Assembly: GCA_019745315.1 (NCBI GenBank)
Contig: JAIETH010000001.1
Span: forward strand, 193,295 to 257,294
DNA: 64,000 bases
DNA from: Patescibacteria group bacterium
GTDB lineage: Bacteria; Patescibacteriota; Minisyncoccia; Phycocordibacterales; UBA918
Direction: 5' to 3'
Shown: positions 40,807 through 48,305 of the stretch, one piece after another
How the letters are laid out: each line of letters begins with the position of its first letter
How positions within the stretch are numbered: the first letter of the stretch is position 1
Program-made: the position numbers and the translations under genes
The notes under the pieces: generated by a model
What the model saw: only the letters and a program-made list of their open reading frames with translations
Told to the model about the DNA's origin: nothing
Databases searched by the model: none

Positions 40807-40945
40807 GATGCGTGTGCGTTAAAAAAGACCATAGACTCCCATTCTACAGACATTGATCATATTAGAGACAGTGCGCGGTATACTATATTTTATGCGAAAA
40901 CATATACACCGTGCGTACCGGAAAGTATGCGATACATCCCCACAG

Positions 40946-41935
40946 ATGAAGCGAAAGATCCGTATCGCGTATGCCACACTCCTTGGTATCGCCATACTTT
41001 CAGGAGCAGCTATAGTCATGGTCGCCGAAATTCAGCTTAAGCGCCTTGAAGAAGCAGCGCGAATTCCAGAAGCCCCTCCATTCCCTATCAGCGTTAATCC
41101 TCAGCTCAAGACTATTTTTGAAAATCCTGAAGTCGATACCTATTTTGCTATCTATGTCTCTTCAGACTATAGCCGAAACAAGAAAATCAGCTGGCTTGAA
41201 GAAACGCTCGAAAAAATTGCCATATCACGTTGGTTTCAACAACTCGCTTCTCCGGTAGCGCGAGTACTCGTCATATATCCCGGAGAACGCAAAGAAGAAA
41301 TTGCTGAGGAATTTGGCGATATTCTCAAATGGGACGAGGAAGAGGAAGCTCGCTTTGTATCTCTTGTCGATCAGTCAATACCGAACCTTGATGAAGGAGT
41401 GTATTTCCCTGGACGATACCTGACTCACAAAGATGCTACTCCAGAGGAAATAGCGTCTCTAGTAACCACTGAATTTACTAGTGAACTTCTCAAGAGATAT
41501 CCTGAAGAACTCGCGGCTCAAATTCCGCTTAAAGAGACGCTTATCCTAGCCTCAATTCTTGAGCGTGAAGCGTATGACTTTACCGACATGCGAGAAATTT
41601 CGGGTATTATCTGGAACCGCCTTTTTATTGATATGAACCTCCAGCTTGATGCAACACTTCAGTATGCAAAAGCAGAAAAGACACCGGGAGTATGGTGGCC
41701 GCAGATAGTCCCGAAGGACAAGTATATTGAATCTCCATTTAATACTTACGAAAACGAAGGTCTTCCACCTGCACCAATTGCAAATCCTTCACTCGATGCA
41801 GTACTCGCAGCACTCAATCCCATAGAAACAAACTGCATGTTCTATTTTCATGATGACAATAGCAATTTCCATTGCAGTGTTACCTACGAAGAACATGTAG
41901 AGCTACTCAAGCAATACTACGGTCAAGGTCGGTAA
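40946..41935 (+). CDS. mltG: endolytic murein transglycosylase MltG (YceG-like)
   Basis: LILASILEREAY, YNTYENEGLPPAPIANPSLDA and ALNP motifs. N-terminal TM helix. Confidence 0.8.
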   Translation: MKRKIRIAYATLLGIAILSGAAIVMVAEIQLKRLEEAARIPEAPPFPISVNPQLKTIFENPEVDTYFAIYVSSDYSRNKKISWLEETLEKIAISRWFQQLASPVARVLVIYPGERKEEIAEEFGDILKWDEEEEARFVSLVDQSIPNLDEGVYFPGRYLTHKDATPEEIASLVTTEFTSELLKRYPEELAAQIPLKETLILASILEREAYDFTDMREISGIIWNRLFIDMNLQLDATLQYAKAEKTPGVWWPQIVPKDKYIESPFNTYENEGLPPAPIANPSLDAVLAALNPIETNCMFYFHDDNSNFHCSVTYEEHVELLKQYYGQGR

Positions 41936-41978
41936 ACCTTTTATTTAAGGCAAGATCAATCTGTGTAACTAGGTAGAT

Positions 41979-42491
41979 TTAGTTATCGATAACGATAACA
42001 TTTTCAATCTCTGTTGGCTCTTCAAACATATCAATAGTTTGCTGAACCAATTCCCTACTCACAACTGATCGGCTTGGATTCTTTTGATTATCCTCCCAAC
42101 GCTTCCATACTGTCTCAACAGATGATTGTATGTATATCACTTTGGTCTCAGCACCAACAGACTGTGTCACTTCTCGCAACCTGTCTCTACTGGCAACTGT
42201 TTGATTGGTCGAATCATAGAGTACGTTATTTCCATCTAGCAAAGCGCGCCTGGTCTTTTCGTATGACTCATTAAATATTTTTTCCCAATTATCCGCATCG
42301 GGCAGTATATTTGAATCCCAATTAAAGCCATGTGTGTGAAAGATATCATCAATACTCACAAACGCTATGTCAGTTTGTGTTTGTAACTGCTTTGCAATAT
42401 ACGATTTACCTGCATATGGAAAACCACACAAAATAAAAAGTGTTTTCTCTGAATCTTTTATAATTGAAACAATATTACCTAAATTTTGCAT
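41979..42491 (-). CDS. P-loop kinase-like protein (AAA_33 type)
   Basis: Walker A LCGFPYAGKS. Confidence 0.55.
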   Translation of the reverse strand: MQNLGNIVSIIKDSEKTLFILCGFPYAGKSYIAKQLQTQTDIAFVSIDDIFHTHGFNWDSNILPDADNWEKIFNESYEKTRRALLDGNNVLYDSTNQTVASRDRLREVTQSVGAETKVIYIQSSVETVWKRWEDNQKNPSRSVVSRELVQQTIDMFEEPTEIENVIVIDN

Positions 42492-42517
42492 TACTTAACT
42501 ATATAGAAATAATATAT

Positions 42518-42874
42518 CTAGCTTGTCTTTTTCAATGATCCTGCAAACTCAATATCAAGAGAAGATATCTTATCTTCAGCAAGCGCAACATAATAGACGA
42601 ACTTAGCGGGACTTGCGCTGAAGTCGCCACTCACGATTGTCTCAATGACCCAGGATTCATCTTTCTCTGTGACGTGAGAAATCTCTGTATCGAGATTCAG
42701 TCCTGACAACGATTTATCTATCCAAGCTGCAATTTGTTCTTTTCCACGCACCTCCTTACTCTCACCTCTATCAATAACAAGGGCGTCATCAGAAAACACA
42801 GAAAGCAAACCTTCTTTATTATGATTGTTCTTATGAAGGAAATATTCAGAAATAATATGTGGTAGATCGCTCAT
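42518..42874 (-). CDS. NTF2/SnoaL-like fold protein
   Basis: 118 aa with a SnoaL-like alpha+beta-barrel pattern. Confidence 0.45.
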   Translation of the reverse strand: MSDLPHIISEYFLHKNNHNKEGLLSVFSDDALVIDRGESKEVRGKEQIAAWIDKSLSGLNLDTEISHVTEKDESWVIETIVSGDFSASPAKFVYYVALAEDKISSLDIEFAGSLKKTS

Positions 42875-42900
42875 ATATTCAGTCTAGTTTTATGTTTCTG

Positions 42901-43245
42901 TTATATATCTGACCACACAGCCAGCTCATTACCGTCTGGATCAGCAAAATGAAAACGACGACCGCCAGGGAAGCTGAATATGTCTTTTGTTATATTTCCC
43001 GCAGCGGCTTCCACTTTTGCTTTCGTCTCTTCAAGATTATTTGAATACAGTATTACCAAAACACTTCCCTTAACTACCTCACCGAGAGCAAATCCTCCGT
43101 CTACACAATCACCTTCAAACGCAGTGTATTCAGTTCCGTAATCAGTAAATTTCCAACCGAATGCCTTTGTATAGAATTCTTTTATTGCGACTAAATTCGG
43201 TGAAAGAAATTCTATATATTGAATTTGCTCATGCGTAAGTTTCAT
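42901..43245 (-). CDS. glyoxalase/bleomycin-resistance (VOC) family protein
   Basis: FHFADPDGNELAVW is the typical VOC C-terminal motif. Confidence 0.7.
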   Translation of the reverse strand: MKLTHEQIQYIEFLSPNLVAIKEFYTKAFGWKFTDYGTEYTAFEGDCVDGGFALGEVVKGSVLVILYSNNLEETKAKVEAAAGNITKDIFSFPGGRRFHFADPDGNELAVWSDI

Positions 43246-43329
43246 AAAAATAGTATAGCAAAATTTATATAAAAGGTACCTGATCCCATTTCCCCATTTC
43301 CTTCAATAATAGAGTGGTGCTTGAGTAAA

Positions 43330-46146
43330 TTAGAAACCATATTTGTCCATACGGAGCTTGAACGCCGCACGGCCTCCCTCGGTGACTAATGTGATTTCTT
43401 CCTTGATCGCCTCGTTGTCGATTGCGCCAACCGCCTTGATTGCACCATGTGTCTGATCCCCAGCTTTCACGTAGTCGCAACAAACCACGAGTTCAGCATC
43501 GCCATTCACCACGAAGTTTGCGCTATGGCTTGCAAAGATAAGTTGTCGCTTGCTCTTTGCTTTCCATACTTGCTCGACAATTTCTCTAATCATTCGGCTG
43601 TCGATATCGTCCTCCGGCTGGTCGATGATGAGAGGCGCGCCCGGTTGATTGAGAAGCACAGTAAGCAATGCCGTTGCCTGTTGGCCGGCAGAAGCATCTT
43701 GGAATTCAATGTAGTCAGCTTTGGTCTTGTTGGTGCAGTACAAGAATTTGGGATTGAATTCGAGCTCGGCAACCGAAAGATCTATCCAGCTTGTCGAATC
43801 AAAGTTGGTAGCGATACGCGTGCGCTCGTTGTCGATAAATCCGCAGTTGTTGAGCACAGGAGTAGCCGGCAATGCTTCCGGTCCCTCCATGGAGTGAAGC
43901 GCGAGTTTTTCGAGCTCGGCTAGGATGCCGTTCCATTCAGCAAGCGGATCTGCGGCTTTCACTAGAGATTGGCAGATTTTGTCGATCTTATCCTCTTTGA
44001 TGTTCATGCCTGAAAAAGCGATCTTCAACTTTTGCGTGAGACGATCAGTGTCGAGACCGGTTGCGAGTTCCGCTTTGATCAGCCCGCCAGATAGAGCGGT
44101 GAATTGAGCACACTGCTTTTCGAGCGCGGCAATCTTCTGCGTGTGCAGGCCGTCCCATTTCTTGCGAAGTCCCTTGTATATCTTTTCCGGATCACCAAGA
44201 GCCGCAAGAGCATTGCGTTTTTCTGTCTGCTGTTTCTTAAGGATGGCGATACGCTTTTCAAGAGCCTGTATCTGATCAAGCTGTTGCTGATTGACGTTCG
44301 CTTTCGCTTTTGCCGCCTCGTACTTCTTTTCAAAAGCCGTCTTGAGCTTTTCCCATTCCTTTATCTCGTCATTGATTGCTTTGAGAGACGCCGGCTTGAA
44401 GAGGTCCGAGAGCGTGCTGACGGCCGTCTCGATCTGTGTAAATTTGGAACCAAACTTTGTGCGGATGCTCTTGATAAGAGCCTTGTTCTCCAGCTCGGCA
44501 TCTTCTTCTTCCTCATCCTCGGTTTCCAACGCTTCAACCAAAGTACCGACATGCTCTTGTGTCGTTTCGAGCTGATTCTTTAGATCATCAATGATAGTTT
44601 CTTCCTCGTCGTACTTTGCTTTCTGGTCGATGATTTTCTGATCGGCTTCAGAGAGACCCTTGAGACTCTTTCGCTGTTTGCCTACCTGTTCGGTAAGCGA
44701 AGCCATTTCAACGCTGTTTTTATTTACTTCCGTCTCGATCTCATTCATGCGAATAAGATCACCGTATGAGGAACGCATTTTTGCTTCAGTGTCGCGCACC
44801 TCGGACTTTATTTGGTCGAGTTCTTGCTTTATAGGCAACTCAACAAAACGCTTCAGTTCGTCGATGCGAACGCCGACGCTACTAAGTTGTTTCTGGCTGT
44901 ACGCTTGAATCGGGAGAAGATTCCGCACCTGTTGCTCTGTAGCTTGCTCGAAATCGCCATCACCAATCTTCAGCAATATTTCCTGTTTCTTGGAATTGCG
45001 CTTAACGATGTGTGGCACGTCATTGAGCAAGAATTCAACCTGTACCTCTCCGTCATGCTTTTGAAGCGTGTTGTCGATAAGGTGCTTGCGCTTGTTCTGC
45101 ACGATGTCCATGTCCTCGCTCTCCACCGGCTGATCACAAAGACCCCAGCGCAAGTATTCAAGAATTGTAGATTTGCCGGTTCCGCGTCCTCCAATGATTG
45201 CATTGTATTGCTGGTTCAAGTCGAGATCGACACGACCAAGGAACTTTGAATTTGAGACGGTAACCGAAGTGATCCAAAGATTAGGCATCAATGGCTCTAC
45301 CAGTGAAAGCCGAGACTCTTTTGCCAAGCAAGCCTGACGCAATGCTTCTGCGGTGGGCTCTGACCATTTTACGTATGTGATATGAGATCCGAGGTCCGAG
45401 TGATCGCGCTTACGATTATCGGATGTTTGAAAAACAGCAATCGGCTTGTATCCGTTGTTTTGCTGGCGTCCCTCAAGAATATTCTTCTTTCCGGTGCTGG
45501 TAGGCGCATAGTCTCCGTCGAGATATCCGCCGACACATCGCATCTCTTTGTAGTGCTTATCAAAACCGTCGCGGAAAAGCGTCTTATATCCGCCGTCCGT
45601 TACGTTGGGGAGAATAATAAATTTACCCTTGAGCCATTTGTGCTGATTGAGCTTGTCCTCAAGGTTGTTCAATCCGGTAAGTGCCGCCGGCGAAACGGAA
45701 TCGATGCTTGCAAGCTTGCTGTTGGTCTCAGGAGTAGCGTCAATGGTCAGTGCTGTAAGAATGTCATTCAACTTTGTTTCGTCAAAGTCTGCGCTAAGTA
45801 AAAGAATTGCTTGGCATGGTGGAGATGAAAGTGTGAGCTCGATACCTGGAAAGACAATAATCCGATCCTCTGGCGCAACATCCTCACCGATCAGATTAAC
45901 CTCTGATGCGGCCGCGGCTTTAACGTATGGGAAGAATGCAAAGTCGTGGTGATCGGTTATCGCAATAGCATTGAGACCTTTTGCTCGGCACGCCTGAATA
46001 AGCTCCTCTGCGTAAGCTTTTCTTTCTGCTGGTGTAGCGGCCTCATCTCCGTGCCAGTTTGCATCCCGTGGCGTATGGACTTGAAAATCGCATTTGTAGA
46101 AGTGTGCTCCTTTGTCCATAAAATGCATTTTAGCATTTTTAGACAT
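43330..46146 (-). CDS. PHP-domain phosphoesterase fused to SMC/SbcC-like ABC ATPase with coiled coil (938 aa)
   Basis: N-terminal PHP: CDFQVHTPRDANWHG...AIAITDHHD. Walker A GGRGTGKST after an N-box-like segment. About 300 aa of coiled coil. C-terminal signature SAGQQ, Walker B LIIDQPEDDID, H-loop ASHS. Confidence 0.8.
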   Translation of the reverse strand: MSKNAKMHFMDKGAHFYKCDFQVHTPRDANWHGDEAATPAERKAYAEELIQACRAKGLNAIAITDHHDFAFFPYVKAAAASEVNLIGEDVAPEDRIIVFPGIELTLSSPPCQAILLLSADFDETKLNDILTALTIDATPETNSKLASIDSVSPAALTGLNNLEDKLNQHKWLKGKFIILPNVTDGGYKTLFRDGFDKHYKEMRCVGGYLDGDYAPTSTGKKNILEGRQQNNGYKPIAVFQTSDNRKRDHSDLGSHITYVKWSEPTAEALRQACLAKESRLSLVEPLMPNLWITSVTVSNSKFLGRVDLDLNQQYNAIIGGRGTGKSTILEYLRWGLCDQPVESEDMDIVQNKRKHLIDNTLQKHDGEVQVEFLLNDVPHIVKRNSKKQEILLKIGDGDFEQATEQQVRNLLPIQAYSQKQLSSVGVRIDELKRFVELPIKQELDQIKSEVRDTEAKMRSSYGDLIRMNEIETEVNKNSVEMASLTEQVGKQRKSLKGLSEADQKIIDQKAKYDEEETIIDDLKNQLETTQEHVGTLVEALETEDEEEEDAELENKALIKSIRTKFGSKFTQIETAVSTLSDLFKPASLKAINDEIKEWEKLKTAFEKKYEAAKAKANVNQQQLDQIQALEKRIAILKKQQTEKRNALAALGDPEKIYKGLRKKWDGLHTQKIAALEKQCAQFTALSGGLIKAELATGLDTDRLTQKLKIAFSGMNIKEDKIDKICQSLVKAADPLAEWNGILAELEKLALHSMEGPEALPATPVLNNCGFIDNERTRIATNFDSTSWIDLSVAELEFNPKFLYCTNKTKADYIEFQDASAGQQATALLTVLLNQPGAPLIIDQPEDDIDSRMIREIVEQVWKAKSKRQLIFASHSANFVVNGDAELVVCCDYVKAGDQTHGAIKAVGAIDNEAIKEEITLVTEGGRAAFKLRMDKYGF

Positions 46147-46220
46147 CTATTAATATGACCCGTCTAGGTAACCAGGTACGATTTTTATGAGTGCTGGCTG
46201 TCTGGGACGATGTTAGAACT

Positions 46221-46775
46221 TTAATCATGAAATAAATAACTGAATGCTTGTTCTCGTGGCTTTTCAAAGTCATGCGAAATATCAAAATACTGAATTCCAA
46301 AATTTGCACACTCCTCTTTAAGATATTTGCTGAACTGAATCATTTCGTCAATTAATTTAAGCATTTCATCGTCAGAGATATTTTTTGTCCAATCCACTTC
46401 CCCTTGATGATATGTTCTTACCAAAGTAAGCTTCTCTTCCTTATTAAGTTCTGAATATCCGAGAAAACAACTTTTAACTTTATTGCCTTCAAGAATTAAC
46501 TCATTAACTTGACTAGGCAGAATCGTATCACCTTCAATGAGAAAATTATGTTCTTCATGAAAAAAGAATCCTAAAAGAGGTTTAGCTACTGGCCATGTTT
46601 TTTCTGCCCTCACAATGAACGACTGGTCGTAAGCCACACCTAGCTGCGGTGCTCCGTTTGCTAAGCCACCAAATAAAGCATCAAGTGGAAAATATGGAAT
46701 CCCCTTTTCAGATACTGCTCTCCTAGAAAGCAATGTTTTTCCTGAACGAGATGCACCACCAAGTATGTAGATCAT
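46221..46775 (-). CDS. P-loop NTPase/kinase-like protein
   Basis: Walker A GGASRSGKT at the N-terminus. 184 aa. Confidence 0.5.
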   Translation of the reverse strand: MIYILGGASRSGKTLLSRRAVSEKGIPYFPLDALFGGLANGAPQLGVAYDQSFIVRAEKTWPVAKPLLGFFFHEEHNFLIEGDTILPSQVNELILEGNKVKSCFLGYSELNKEEKLTLVRTYHQGEVDWTKNISDDEMLKLIDEMIQFSKYLKEECANFGIQYFDISHDFEKPREQAFSYLFHD

Positions 46776-46834
46776 AAGGAAAGTATAATGGTTCTAGCTG
46801 CTTAATCCTAACGAGAGTCCAACTAACAATTTTG

Positions 46835-46853
46835 CTGGGATACAGGGATTCGA
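46835..46853. repeat. direct partial copy of the tRNA-Gln 3' end (CTGGGATACAGGGATTCGA)
   Basis: 19/19 identity to 47079-47097. Confidence 0.7.
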
Positions 46854-46952
46854 TTCTTACAGAATCAGTACAGGTTGTCAGTATTTTAGTCCAAGTATTC
46901 CTAAAATACTAGGCAACCTTTTCTCACCCCATATCCTTCCGCTTGCGCACAG

Positions 46953-46980
46953 AAAAAACCGGCATAAAGCCGGCTTTCTT
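46953..46980. terminator. hairpin terminator CCGGC-ATAAA-GCCGG with flanking A-run and T-rich tract
   Basis: Seen directly in the sequence. Confidence 0.5.
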
Positions 46981-47033
46981 GAAATAGTCAGGATTCGACC
47001 TCGTCCCTCGGCACGACAGTCCCCCGGACTGTC

Positions 47034-47054
47034 GGTTCGAATCCCTGTATCCCA
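47034..47054. repeat. inverted 21-nt copy of the tRNA-Gln 3' end (GGTTCGAATCCCTGTATCCCA)
   Basis: Perfect reverse complement of 47079-47099, 24 nt away. A plus-strand tRNA cannot be formed. Confidence 0.7.
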
Positions 47055-47078
47055 TCTCTCATCACTACGTTCTTCGAG

Positions 47079-47149
47079 CTGGGATACAGGGATTCGAACC
47101 CCAATTAAAGGCTTCAAAGGCCTCTGTCCTACCATTAGACGATATCCCA
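47079..47149 (-). tRNA. tRNA-Gln (anticodon TTG)
   Basis: Reverse-strand sequence TGGGATATCGTCTAATGGTAGGACAGAGGCCTTTGAAGCCTTTAATTGGGGTTCGAATCCCTGTATCCCAG. 7-bp acceptor stem, U8, anticodon loop CTTTGAA, T-loop TTCGAAT. Confidence 0.85.
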
Positions 47150-47228: not shown

Positions 47229-48305
47229 CTATTCCTTTGTAGAAGGAATAGAGTCTATAACCGCGAGTTCAAGCGGGAGTACTGCGATATGTGTGCGGCC
47301 GACTTGGTCTGTGGCATCGAGAAAACGAAGGAGTGTTTTTGAGTTTATAAGTGTCTTTGGGTCTTTTGCAATCTCGCTAATTACAGCCTTATCTTCATCA
47401 CTAAAACTTGATAGATATTCCTCTGCATCACTCGGGGCATTTCTCTTTAGAATCACTGCGCGCATACGCTCAAGCAAAAGTCGTGCAAAGAGTTTCATGT
47501 CTATTGCCATCTCACCCGCCTCTCGTAAAGCCGCAAGTGCTTTCTCTGTAGAGTGCTCATGAATACCAGATACTACATTCATAATGAGTGCACTTCGCGG
47601 AGCACCTATGATAGCGGCTACCTCATCTGCTCCAGCCTTCGTATCAGGAGAGGCGGTGATTACCTTTTGCGTGATACCAAGCGCGTCTCTGAAAGAACCG
47701 TCTGCTGCTGCAGCAACGAGATCAGCTCCGTCAGGAGAAAGAGTAAATGCTTCGGATTTCGCAACTCCAATTATATGATCACGAAGCATTGCGCGTGTCG
47801 GCGCCTTAAAGCGATACACCTGACAGCGAGAAACGATGGTCTCAAGAAGTTTTTCTACCTCTGTGGTGGCAAGGATAAATACAACATGACGTGGAGGTTC
47901 TTCCAAGGTTTTTAAAAGTGCATTGAATGCTTCTTTGGTGAGCATGTGTACCTCGTCAATGATGTATACCTTTTGAGCTGACTCATATGGAAGAGTGAGG
48001 ACTGCCTCACGGAGCACACGCACATCGTCAATACCGCGGTTTGAAGCGGCATCTATTTCATAGATATCAATTTCTTTGGTACCAATCTCTCGCGCAAAGA
48101 TACGCGCAATACTGGTCTTTCCTGTACCACGAGGTCCTGCAAAGAGAAGTGCGTGCGGTACCTGTCCTTTTTGTATCGCTCCAGAGAGAGCGGTTACCAC
48201 ATGATCCTGTCCACGCACATCAGCAAATGACGCCGGGCGATACTTACGATACAGAACAGTGTGTTCTACCGCAGCAGCTTCATGTGTATCACTTTTTTTC
48301 TTCAT
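47229..48305 (-). CDS. dnaX: DNA polymerase III subunit gamma/tau (short form)
   Basis: HALLFAGPRGTGKTSIARIFAREI. 358 aa, with no tau C-terminal domains. Confidence 0.9.
   Translation of the reverse strand: MKKKSDTHEAAAVEHTVLYRKYRPASFADVRGQDHVVTALSGAIQKGQVPHALLFAGPRGTGKTSIARIFAREIGTKEIDIYEIDAASNRGIDDVRVLREAVLTLPYESAQKVYIIDEVHMLTKEAFNALLKTLEEPPRHVVFILATTEVEKLLETIVSRCQVYRFKAPTRAMLRDHIIGVAKSEAFTLSPDGADLVAAAADGSFRDALGITQKVITASPDTKAGADEVAAIIGAPRSALIMNVVSGIHEHSTEKALAALREAGEMAIDMKLFARLLLERMRAVILKRNAPSDAEEYLSSFSDEDKAVISEIAKDPKTLINSKTLLRFLDATDQVGRTHIAVLPLELAVIDSIPSTKE

What the first reader, a model, noticed from the sequence alone, without database searches (positions are those of the whole stretch)
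41979..47149. Accessory block next to tRNA-Gln carrying a 938-aa PHP-nuclease/SMC-like ATPase fusion between two P-loop proteins
The gene at 43330-46146 fuses an N-terminal PHP phosphoesterase domain to a complete SbcC/Rad50-like ABC ATPase, with Walker A, about 300 aa of coiled coil, signature, Walker B and H-loop. The PHP domain is shown by CDFQVHTPRDANW and AIAITDHHD. The protein is effectively a single-chain analogue of the SbcCD/Mre11-Rad50 nuclease-ATPase, with PHP replacing the calcineurin-like nuclease. It sits in a block of non-housekeeping genes. These are an AAA_33 kinase, a SnoaL-like protein, a VOC protein and a second P-loop protein at 46221-46775 with a 74-nt gap to the ATPase. 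The block abuts a tRNA whose 3' end is duplicated, which is a hallmark of integrated islands. SMC-like ATPases paired with nuclease modules are recurrent in anti-phage systems such as Lamassu, Wadjet, OLD, PARIS and Gabija, so this reads as a candidate stand-alone defence or DNA-end-processing system.
Basis: partly seen in the sequence, partly recalled or inferred. Interest (0 to 1): 0.7.

Follow-up and report, generated by a model that had tools for sequence, protein, structure and literature searches.

The report
Lone TrlF/Ppl-type PHP-ATPase gene
The big gene is a member of an already named family (TrlF, sister of the anti-phage protein Ppl) that a tiny-genome Patescibacteria bacterium picked up as a single gene; the neighbouring genes and the tRNA repeat are not part of it.

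Summary
The ORFs, motifs and tRNA-Gln 3'-end repeat are all real. The 938-aa ORF (true start probably Met10, 929 aa, 43330-46119) matches NCBIfam 'TrlF family AAA-like ATPase' end to end above its curated cutoff. It is collinear with E. coli anti-phage Ppl: an N-terminal PHP-like domain, then an SMC/Rad50-class ABC head split by a ~260-aa coiled coil.

It is not a five-gene system. None of the four neighbours recurs beside 80 TrlF homologues. The 184-aa P-loop gene belongs to the Parcubacteria backbone downstream of DnaX-tRNA-Gln. A 95%-nt-identical copy in another Patescibacteria contig shares only the ORF itself.

The tRNA repeat brackets 244 bp, not the block, and recurs in relatives. Homologues sit among R-M systems, inside BREX, in a P2-phage hotspot, on >1,000 plasmids and beside recombinases, so a defence role is likely but untested.

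Two twists. This clade replaces three canonical PHP metal-binding histidines (Q22, N181, R245), all strictly conserved. The whole superfamily, Ppl included, has Gln at the Walker-B catalytic Glu position. Nuclease activity is therefore uncertain.

Verdict: new member of a known kind; modest interest.

The parts
43330..46119 (-). trlF gene (929 aa from Met10; the ORF is open up to 46146). This is the only horizontally acquired unit that can be demonstrated.
   Evidence: NCBIfam TrlF_fam_ATP 509 bits, residues 12-937 against model 1-944. Homologues are 929-932 aa. blastn to L081 gives 95.2% over exactly 43330-46119, with no flank homology. GC3 is 0.54 against 0.27-0.36 for the four neighbours.
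45277..46119 (-). PHP-like phosphoesterase domain (aa 10-290, 938-numbering) with a remodelled metal site: D20-F-Q22-V-H24, D28, T64-D-H66-H67-D68, E103, N181, D210, S242-D243-N-R245.
   Evidence: hhalign to YcdX puts Q22 on H7, H24 on H9 and H66 on H40. Family and Ppl alignments put E103 on E73, N181 on H101, D243 on D192 and R245 on H194. The states are invariant or nearly so in 83 clade members. The AlphaFold model is poor here.
44878..45276 (-). ABC-ATPase head, N-lobe (aa 291-423): Walker A G319-T327, Q-loop around Q418.
44092..44877 (-). Antiparallel coiled coil (aa 424-685) with an acidic apex loop at about 541-554. It has no CxxC zinc hook and no hinge.
   Evidence: Helices 424-494, 500-540, 555-581, 589-650 and 653-685, pLDDT mostly 80-90. 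No invariant Cys near the apex.
43330..44091 (-). ABC-ATPase head, C-lobe (aa 686-938): signature S819-A-G-Q-Q, Walker B L839-I-I-D842-Q843-P-E845-D-D, H-loop S873-H874.
   Evidence: Pfam AAA_21; motif table. The same DQPEDD is present in E. coli Ppl and the phage TrlF.
46221..46775 (-). 184-aa P-loop protein (GGASRSGKT). A native Parcubacteria gene, not a TrlF partner.
   Evidence: No Pfam, NCBIfam or PADLOC hit. It has 133 homologues, 60-85% identical, all about 184 aa and Parcubacteria/Patescibacteria wherever a source names the organism; some are named '2-phosphoglycerate kinase' by JGI. They lie in other contexts without TrlF. It is absent from all 80 TrlF loci.
46191..46222 (-). Conserved post-stop box, TAA-AGTTCTAACATCGTCCCAGACAGCCAGCAC, between the P-loop gene and trlF.
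   Evidence: Single copy in the window. About 20 copies in Parcubacteria relatives, all on the coding strand, mostly 4-14 nt after a stop codon. No inverted partner.
42901..43245 (-). VOC/glyoxalase-family protein (114 aa); unrelated accessory neighbour.
   Evidence: Pfam Glyoxalase 36 bits. A very widespread small family, 70-90% identical in Kaiserbacteria and Paceibacterota and 75% in Chitinophaga. Never next to TrlF.
42518..42874 (-). SnoaL_2-like protein (118 aa); unrelated neighbour.
   Evidence: Pfam SnoaL_2 28.6 bits. Never next to TrlF.
41979..42491 (-). AAA_33 / KTI12-like P-loop kinase (170 aa); probably native.
   Evidence: Pfam AAA_33 53.8 bits. A 68%-identical homologue lies directly after tRNA-Gln in L094.
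47078..47149 (-). tRNA-Gln(UUG). Part of the conserved backbone PBP-DnaX-tRNA-Gln.
   Evidence: ARAGORN; Rfam tRNA 62.8 bits. DnaX-tRNA-Gln linkage holds in about 40 of 45 related loci with enough downstream sequence.
46834..46853 (-). Direct 20/20 copy of the tRNA-Gln 3' end, 244 bp from the original.
   Evidence: Analogous copies occur at +133 to +172 nt in 4 relatives and at +1605 nt in one.
47034..47058 (+). Inverted copy of the tRNA-Gln 3' end. It forms a 25-nt, 96% inverted repeat with 47076-47100.
   Evidence: I1.
46853..46881 (-). The only sigma-70-like promoter match upstream of the P-loop/trlF pair (CTGACA-17-AAGAAT with TG).
   Evidence: Weak: the number of sites in the region is not above the shuffle expectation.

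Best explanation
The 43330-46119 gene encodes a TrlF-family protein. It belongs to the Ppl/TrlF/Spaf_1101 superfamily of single-chain PHP-phosphoesterase plus SMC/Rad50-like ABC-ATPase proteins. A Parcubacteria (Patescibacteria) genome acquired it as a lone ORF. It landed in a variable, accessory-gene-rich stretch downstream of the conserved DnaX-tRNA-Gln backbone.

Shown:
- Family membership and collinearity with Ppl.
- The SMC/Rad50-class head and a ~260-aa coiled coil.
- Single-gene mobility.
- Non-association with the neighbouring genes.
- A defence/MGE neighbourhood for homologues.

Inferred: it works as a stand-alone anti-phage or anti-MGE sentinel, like Ppl. Two heads would sandwich NTP, and the naturally 'EQ-like' Walker B (D-Q) would favour stable binding over fast hydrolysis. 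The coiled coils and heads would engage DNA ends. A fall in the NTP pool and/or the appearance of free 3' ends during infection would release the N-terminal PHP-like domain to attack DNA.

This clade has Q22, N181 and R245 in place of three metal-binding His. Its catalytic chemistry may therefore differ from Ppl, for example a two-metal or hard-metal (Mg/Mn) site with Arg replacing the third metal. Alternatively, the domain may act as a binding or sensing module.
For: Identity:
- NF045780 scores 509 bits full length.
- 2,772+ homologues, 60-98% identical across phyla.
- 1,274 cluster representatives at E<=1e-30.

Architecture:
-.
- Residue-level collinearity with PGAP-annotated E. coli Ppl, including DQPEDD.

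Known Ppl mechanism: a PHP 3'-5' ssDNA exonuclease, inhibited by NTPs and triggered by 3'-OH ends. Sources are the review PMC12904381 and the primary reference, Xu et al., Mol Cell 2026, identified through PMC13434339.

Defence/MGE context of family members:
- Type I, III and IIG R-M, GmrSD, DpnII, Fic, RadC, recombinases and TraG.
- Inside BREX-1 between pglX and pglZ.
- The P2-like phage hotspot between gpA and gpQ, with a protein scoring 465 bits to TrlF.
- Next to AimR on a B. cereus phage-plasmid.
- Mod-Res-TrlF on pMI3.
- 25 of 52 TrlF loci against 3 of 43 control loci carry such genes (Fisher p about 1e-5).

Single-gene acquisition:
- 95% nt identity to L081 confined to the ORF, in a Fic-RadC-TrlF-DsbA context.
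- No neighbour co-occurrence.
- Relatives have the same backbone without TrlF.
- Elevated GC3.
Against: - No experiment exists for any TrlF-clade protein as a defence gene.
- In Photorhabdus, the only phenotype of the TRL operon mapped to trlG, not trlF.
- Three canonical PHP ligands are replaced, so nuclease activity cannot simply be transferred from Ppl.
- The Ppl equivalog cutoff is missed by a wide margin (169 against 1000 bits).
- 60-98% identity across phyla is unusually high for a defence gene and could reflect a conserved cellular role.
- PGAP's GO term is double-strand break repair.
- The context-enrichment test used probes taken from TrlF loci and a control made only of Patescibacteria, so it is biased towards a positive result.
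- The AlphaFold model of the PHP part has low confidence.
Confidence: 0.6

Rival explanations
1. TrlF is a DNA-end-processing or repair enzyme. It would be a single-chain SbcCD/Mre11-Rad50 analogue used for host genome maintenance, and its presence near R-M genes and MGEs would be incidental.
For: - Rad50, SbcC and SMC heads are the best structural matches.
- PGAP assigns GO 'double-strand break repair'.
- Conservation across phyla is very high.
Against: - Distribution is patchy: 283 confirmed loci in a collection of 185,579 species genomes. That count is a lower bound, because it comes from a two-motif scan.
- Contexts vary, with no conserved repair neighbours.
- Members lie in a phage defence hotspot, inside BREX and on conjugative plasmids.
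- Close relatives of the host lack it at the same locus.
Confidence: 0.15
2. In this Q22/N181/R245 clade the PHP-like domain is catalytically dead. The protein would be an NTP- or DNA-end-sensing scaffold that needs a separate effector, either TrlG-like, an adjacent restriction enzyme or Fic, or one supplied in trans. On this reading the window copy, which has no such partner, is an orphan or is inert.
For: - Three canonical His are replaced.
- The TRL-type Vibrio copy that is paired with a TrlG-like protein is even more degenerate, with Q-V-N and A-D-V-A.
- TrlG carried the Photorhabdus phenotype.
- Mod-Res-TrlF and Fic-RadC-TrlF arrangements recur with 4-9 bp gaps.
Against: - The substituted positions, and the retained ones (H24, D65-H66-H67, E103, D243), are under strict conservation. 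That argues for an intact, if altered, active site.
- 70 of 80 loci have no TrlG-like gene, and no universal partner exists.
- Gln and Asn can ligate Mg or Mn.
Confidence: 0.15
3. The five genes 41979-46775 form one integrated island, or a multi-gene defence system with two P-loop partners, inserted at tRNA-Gln.
For: - All five genes are on the same strand and tightly packed.
- The only promoter-like site lies upstream of the P-loop gene.
- The tRNA 3' end is duplicated.
- L176 has a distant PHP-ATPase 2 kb from a P-loop-184 homologue.
Against: - No co-occurrence of any neighbour with TrlF in 80 loci.
- The P-loop gene and the kinase occur without TrlF in relatives.
- The repeat brackets 244 bp only, and the block has no integrase.
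- Homology to the nearest TrlF copy ends at the ORF borders.
- The neighbours' GC3 differs from that of trlF.
Confidence: 0.03

Closest known systems
TrlF (Temperature Restricting Locus protein F of Photorhabdus laumondii; NCBIfam NF045780 'TrlF family AAA-like ATPase')
   Same: Full-length match above the curated cutoff. Same PHP ('histidinol phosphatase') plus AAA/ABC ATPase architecture.
   Different: The Photorhabdus and Vibrio/Pseudomonas versions sit in a trlR-trlF-trlG operon with an AlbA_2/'RecG-like' protein. The window copy is solitary. PHP motif states differ between subclades. No function has been shown for TrlF itself.
Ppl (E. coli single-gene anti-phage protein; NF042955; PADLOC Ppl)
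   Same: Collinear domain order. Shared features are the Walker A, Q-loop, signature, DQPEDD Walker B, H-loop and C-terminal EGG..AF motif. It is a single-gene system carried on MGEs.
   Different: It scores only 169 bits against a cutoff of 1000. Ppl has all canonical PHP ligands (HxH, DH, E, H, DxH), whereas the window clade has QxH, N and DxR. Ppl's exonuclease activity and NTP/3'-OH sensing are demonstrated; nothing is demonstrated here.
SbcCD / Mre11-Rad50
   Different: The nuclease is a fused PHP-like domain, not a separate calcineurin-like Mre11/SbcD. There is no zinc hook. The Walker-B Glu is Gln. Distribution is accessory, not core.
SMC-like or ABC-ATPase defence modules (Lamassu LmuB, Wadjet JetC, Gabija GajA, PARIS AriA, Septu PtuA, OLD)
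   Same: ATPase-level similarity: PADLOC LmuB 7.6e-9, AriA 1e-12, GajA 6e-9. Structural hits to JetC, LmuB, PtuA and GajA.
   Different: The partner genes (LmuA, JetABD, GajB, AriB, PtuB) are not among the five block genes; the rest of the window was not scanned for them. No Toprim or other effector domain is present. The effector is a PHP-like domain.

Membership tests
TrlF family (NCBIfam NF045780) | Whole-protein score at or above the curated equivalog cutoff (350 bits), with end-to-end coverage | tested here: met
   509 bits, residues 12-937 against model 1-944.
TrlF family (NCBIfam NF045780) | N-terminal PHP-type domain fused to an ABC/SMC-like ATPase with an inserted coiled coil | tested here: met
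   The PHP part is sub-threshold in Pfam (22.8 against 26.4 bits) but aligns to YcdX and to canonical family members.
TRL operon (Hapeshi et al. 2020) | Linkage to trlG (AlbA_2/'RecG-like') and trlR | tested here: not met
   No TrlG-like sequence anywhere in the window. Only 10 of 80 loci have one.
Ppl (NF042955) | Equivalog score at or above 1000 bits | tested here: not met
   169 bits, two partial stretches. PADLOC Ppl E 1.7e-37, partial.
Ppl (NF042955) | Complete canonical PHP metal-ligand set (HxH, H, E, H, H, DxH) | tested here: not met
   Q22, N181 and R245 replace three His. H24, H66, E103 and D243 are retained.
Ppl (NF042955) | Anti-phage activity, and 3'-5' ssDNA exonuclease activity gated by NTPs | not testable with these tools
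   Needs expression, plaque assays and biochemistry.
Mre11-Rad50 / SbcCD | Rad50-type ABC head with a coiled-coil insertion | tested here: met
Mre11-Rad50 / SbcCD | CxxC zinc hook at the coiled-coil apex, and a separate calcineurin-like nuclease subunit | tested here: not met
   The apex is an acidic loop without Cys. The adjacent genes are VOC and a P-loop protein.
tRNA-integrated genomic island | Direct repeats of the tRNA 3' end flanking the whole inserted block | tested here: not met
   The only copies are at 46834-46853 and 47034-47058. None lies near 41940-41980.
tRNA-integrated genomic island | An integrase or recombinase within the island | tested here: not met
   None of the five block proteins has a recombinase domain.
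tRNA-integrated genomic island | Absence from the same site in related genomes | tested here: inconclusive
   TrlF, VOC and SnoaL are absent downstream of DnaX-tRNA-Gln in all related loci. However, the nearest relatives are only 50-64% identical in DnaX, so there is no true empty-site comparison.
Integron cassette array | attC-type imperfect palindromes after each ORF | tested here: not met
   The post-stop box has no significant inverted partner in 0 of 21 copies. Three intergenic gaps in the block are only 26 nt or less than 90 nt.
Lamassu / Wadjet / Gabija / PARIS / Septu | The cognate partner gene(s) next to the ATPase | tested here: not met
   The neighbours have no PADLOC hits. Similarity is at the level of the ATPase fold only.

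The most novel reading that the evidence does not exclude
The Q22/N181/R245 subclade of TrlF is a mechanistically distinct branch of the Ppl superfamily. It spreads as a bare ORF at 60-98% identity across Patescibacteria, Acidobacteriota, Verrucomicrobiota and Proteobacteria, and at about 45% into Bacteroidota and archaea.

Its remodelled PHP pocket would use a different metal or chemistry, or would act as a nucleotide or DNA-end sensor rather than an exonuclease. Its 'EQ-like' ABC head would be a non-hydrolysing NTP gauge.

If it also protects ultra-small CPR bacteria, it would be one of the few single-gene immune modules shown to work in that radiation.
Probability: 0.2. Interest if true: 0.55.

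Novelty: new member of a known kind. Interest (0 to 1): 0.3.

Why it matters
The finding turns an apparently new 'fusion in an island' into a placed member of the Ppl/TrlF superfamily. It also removes four bystander genes and a misleading tRNA repeat from the picture.

Three things remain useful:
(i) A concrete, testable contrast between Ppl (canonical PHP site) and a very widespread clade with three conserved ligand substitutions.
(ii) The superfamily-wide Gln at the Walker-B catalytic position, which fits an NTP-sensing rather than motor role.
(iii) Evidence that genome-reduced Patescibacteria exchange this 2.8-kb gene as a precise single ORF.

Tried and rejected
- Literature search for 'TrlF' at first returned only laser-spectroscopy papers. 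The name was traced through trlF/trlG co-occurrence.
- The primary Ppl paper could not be read.
- AlphaFold with 19 sequences modelled the PHP domain poorly (pLDDT below 50 for residues 1-36 and 182-281). No structural claim is made about the active site, and a second run was judged uninformative because coordinates are not returned.
- The window's own contig could not be fetched by exact look-up of DnaX. Only a 957-bp identical Logan fragment was found.
- attC/integron hypothesis for the post-stop box: rejected.
- Rfam: nothing but the tRNA, plus spurious miRNA hits on the tRNA inverted repeat.
- Promoter and terminator scans were not above shuffle expectation.
- The 19-nt similarity between the kinase ORF (42309-42327) and the tRNA body (D3) was treated as chance.
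- The L162 AAA_33 gene next to the P-loop-184 homologue is not detectably orthologous to the window kinase, so it was not used as an 'empty site'.
Full report
**1. What is there**

Window 41979-47149 carries five tightly packed minus-strand ORFs followed by tRNA-Gln(UUG) at 47078-47149.

| Coordinates | Size | Pfam result |
|---|---|---|
| 41979-42491 | 170 aa | AAA_33/KTI12-like kinase |
| 42518-42874 | 118 aa | SnoaL_2 |
| 42901-43245 | 114 aa | Glyoxalase/VOC |
| 43330-46146 | 938 aa | AAA_21, AAA_23 above threshold; SMC_N, AAA_15 and PHP below |
| 46221-46775 | 184 aa | nothing; it has a P-loop (GGASRSGKT) |

The flanks are housekeeping genes: YceG/MltG at 40853-41935 and a DnaX-like clamp-loader subunit at 47229-48305.

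**2. Identity of the large protein**

It matches NCBIfam NF045780, 'TrlF family AAA-like ATPase', over its whole length (509 bits, cutoff 350; residues 12-937 against model 1-944). It matches the sister models more weakly: Ppl_antiphage at 169 bits (cutoff 1000) and Spaf_1101 at 156 bits (cutoff 475). In PADLOC the best hit is Ppl (1.7e-37, partial). The weaker hits (AriA, GajA, LmuB, PtuA) are at ATPase level only.

The name TrlF comes from the Photorhabdus laumondii Temperature Restricting Locus, trlR-trlF-trlG (Hapeshi et al. 2020, PMC7554251). There TrlF was annotated as a histidinol phosphatase. All temperature-tolerant mutations fell in trlG, a 'RecG-like' protein, and none in trlF.

Ppl is a validated single-gene anti-phage protein with PHP and ATPase domains (PMC11482910). 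A 2026 review describes it as a 3'-5' ssDNA exonuclease. It is inhibited by NTPs bound to both the PHP and NTPase domains, and it is activated by 3'-OH ends made by phage homing endonucleases (PMC12904381). The primary reference is Xu et al., Mol Cell 2026;86:180 (found through; not readable here).

**3. Anatomy**

Homologues are 929-932 aa and begin MDKGAHFYKCDF. DNA identity to the closest copy ends at 46119. Met10 is therefore the likely start.

The AlphaFold model (pLDDT 71) shows these parts:
- An N-terminal alpha/beta domain, modelled with low confidence.
- An ABC head N-lobe, residues 290-423.
- A helical hairpin, residues 424-685, with an acidic apex loop.
- A C-lobe, residues 686-938.

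Two deviations matter.

(a) Walker B reads IIDQPEDD. Gln occupies the position of the catalytic Glu. This holds in all 83 clade members, in a phage TrlF and in E. coli Ppl itself. By analogy with engineered E-to-Q ABC mutants (established knowledge), this favours nucleotide binding and head engagement over rapid hydrolysis. That is consistent with an NTP-sensing role. This step is inference.

(b) The PHP site is remodelled. The table maps the window residues onto the metal ligands of E. coli YcdX. The ligand positions were recalled from the 1M65 literature, and the residue identities were verified on the fetched sequence.

| Window residue | YcdX ligand | Basis |
|---|---|---|
| Q22 | H7 | hhalign |
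| H24 | H9 | hhalign |
| H66 | H40 | hhalign |
| E103 | E73 | alignment with canonical members |
| N181 | H101 | alignment with canonical members |
| D243 | D192 | alignment with canonical members |
| R245 | H194 | alignment with canonical members |

The canonical members used were the Yersinia phage copy (DLHIHS / ITDHN / GIE / LAHI / SSDAHS) and Ppl (FHNHT / SDHN / GVE / LAHI / SDAHH).

The Q/N/R state is essentially fixed in the clade. Position 22 is Q in 81 of 83 sequences, and R245 is present in 82 of 83. Position 181 is N in 69 sequences, H in 12 and Q in one; the remaining sequence, the canonical phage copy, is gapped there. The domain is therefore constrained but non-canonical. Nuclease activity cannot be assumed from Ppl.

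**4. The neighbours are not partners**

- tBLASTn of the P-loop-184, VOC, SnoaL and kinase proteins against 80 TrlF loci from bacterial and archaeal genomes found none of them.
- Clustering all neighbouring ORFs gave no universal partner.
- The P-loop-184 protein is 100% identical to a 'Patescibacteria group bacterium' protein on a 315.8-kb NCBI contig. It belongs to a family of 133 proteins that look Parcubacteria-restricted, 60-85% identical and all about 184 aa.
- In L164 the order SerRS-x-Dus-DnaX-...-tRNA-Gln-...-P-loop184 mirrors the window backbone, without TrlF.
- In other genomes the P-loop gene follows TruB, RecG or an SDR.
- A 68%-identical kinase lies directly after tRNA-Gln in L094.
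- The VOC protein belongs to a very widespread small family.

**5. The mobile unit is the ORF**

The closest homologue is P0001, 98% identical in protein sequence. It lies in a Logan contig in a Fic-RadC-TrlF-x-DsbA context. blastn identity to it is 95.2% over exactly 43330-46119 and nil outside.

trlF has GC3 of 0.54. The window mean is 0.39 (z about 1.9) and its four neighbours are at 0.27-0.36.

Identity of 60-83% to copies in WWE3, Saccharibacteria, Acidobacteriota, Verrucomicrobiota and Proteobacteria, and about 45% in Bacteroidota and archaea, indicates wide horizontal spread.

**6. Context of the family**

Recurrent neighbours:
- HsdM, HsdS and HsdR.
- Type III Mod-Res, directly upstream with gaps of a few bp in L013, L055 and plasmid pMI3.
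- Eco57I-type enzymes.
- EcoRI methylase plus GmrSD.
- DpnII.
- PD-(D/E)XK nucleases.
- Fic and RadC.
- Serine and tyrosine recombinases.
- TraG/TrwB coupling proteins.

Other placements:
- A TrlF plus TrlG-like pair lies inside a BREX-1 operon on a Vibrio plasmid.
- Another such pair lies on a P. cerasi plasmid.
- A TrlF scoring 465 bits occupies the gpA-gpQ hotspot of a P2-like Yersinia phage.
- One lies beside AimR on a B. cereus phage-plasmid.
- More than 1,100 plasmids, mostly conjugative, carry TrlF- or Ppl-annotated genes.

With probes taken from these neighbours, 25 of 52 non-source TrlF loci scored positive, against 3 of 43 DnaX-centred control loci (Fisher p about 1e-5). The probe origin and the taxon composition of the control bias this test towards a positive result.

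The family has 1,274 50%-identity cluster representatives at E<=1e-30.

**7. The tRNA repeat**

The 20-nt 3' end of tRNA-Gln is repeated directly at 46834-46853 and inverted at 47034-47058. No copy lies at the distal end of the block, and no integrase is present.

DnaX-tRNA-Gln linkage is conserved in relatives. Five of 49 relatives have an extra direct copy of their own tRNA-Gln 3' 20-mer: four at +133 to +172 nt and one at +1.6 kb. This is a lineage feature of unknown meaning. It is not evidence that 41979-46775 is one island.

**8. Verdict**

This is a solitary TrlF-family (Ppl-superfamily) gene, most likely a stand-alone defence module. Family membership is shown. The defence role is inferred from context and from Ppl. 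The mechanism is inferred, and the non-canonical PHP site weakens that inference. The finding is a new member of a known kind.

Noticed in passing
window 46191-46222 (minus strand); also L083, L084, L088, L093, L109, L123, L125, L162, L164, L177: A conserved, strand-specific box of about 30 nt (TAAA-GTTCYAACATCGTCCCAGACNGCCAGCA) begins 4-14 nt after the stop codon of different small genes in Parcubacteria. There are up to 5 copies per locus, about 90% identical between genomes whose DnaX proteins are only 50-60% identical. It is not in Rfam and has no inverted partner (0 of 21), so it is not attC-like. It may be a 3'-UTR/terminator element or a recombination or protein-binding site that marks small mobile genes.
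   Followed up: partly
L094 1700-1990: An intact tRNA-Gln(CUG) is nested between what look like the 5' and 3' parts of a tRNA-Gln(UUG)-like sequence. It is flanked by a ~30-nt inverted repeat (AAGAAGTGATTTTAATACAAATTTGTGTGCATA / CATGCACAGAAATTAAAATCACTTCTT). This could be a tRNA inserted in a tRNA, or debris from rearrangement.
   Followed up: no
window 46834-46853, 47034-47058, 47076-47100; L084, L098, L106, L118, L123: The 3' 20-mer of tRNA-Gln is duplicated a short distance downstream (133-244 nt) in the window and in 4 relatives, and at 1.6 kb in one more. In the window an additional inverted copy forms a 25-nt, 96% hairpin with the tRNA 3' end. The function is unknown (att scar, terminator or processing signal).
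   Followed up: partly
window 43621-43623 (Q843 codon); all TrlF and Ppl sequences examined (L166, L167-L170, L172, L173, L176): The whole Ppl/TrlF superfamily has D-Q-P-E-[DE] at Walker B, a natural 'E-to-Q' at the catalytic glutamate position of ABC ATPases. This fits NTP sensing rather than motor activity.
   Followed up: partly
L013, L055, L167 (pMI3); possibly L020, L052, L068: A Type III-like Mod (N6_N4_Mtase) and Res (ResIII helicase) pair lies immediately upstream of trlF on the same strand, in unrelated phyla (Nomurabacteria, Omnitrophota, Sphingobium plasmid). This suggests a recurrent three-gene arrangement.
   Followed up: partly
L003, L008, L022, L081 (also Fic in L013, L020, L061; RadC in L002, L007): Fic/DOC-RadC-TrlF with 4-bp or overlapping junctions recurs in Patescibacteria contigs. 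Some of these may be orthologous positions. Others have different flanks.
   Followed up: partly
L176 879-3851: A 990-aa distant Ppl/TrlF-superfamily protein with canonical PHP motifs (DLHVHT, SDSH, IIDQPEE) lies next to a serine recombinase and 2 kb from a P-loop-184 homologue in another Parcubacteria genome. It is a second, independent PHP-ATPase in such a variable region.
   Followed up: partly
L168 3981-7894 (Vibrio pLH80-1): A TrlF plus TrlG-like pair is embedded in a BREX-1 operon between a split pglX and pglZ. This TrlF has the most degenerate PHP motifs (ALQVNP, ADVAR). PHP decay may therefore correlate with having a TrlG partner.
   Followed up: no
window 46221-46775: The 184-aa P-loop protein defines a tight, apparently Parcubacteria-restricted family with no Pfam, NCBIfam or PADLOC model. 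JGI sometimes names it 2-phosphoglycerate kinase. It appears in at least five different genomic contexts.
   Followed up: partly
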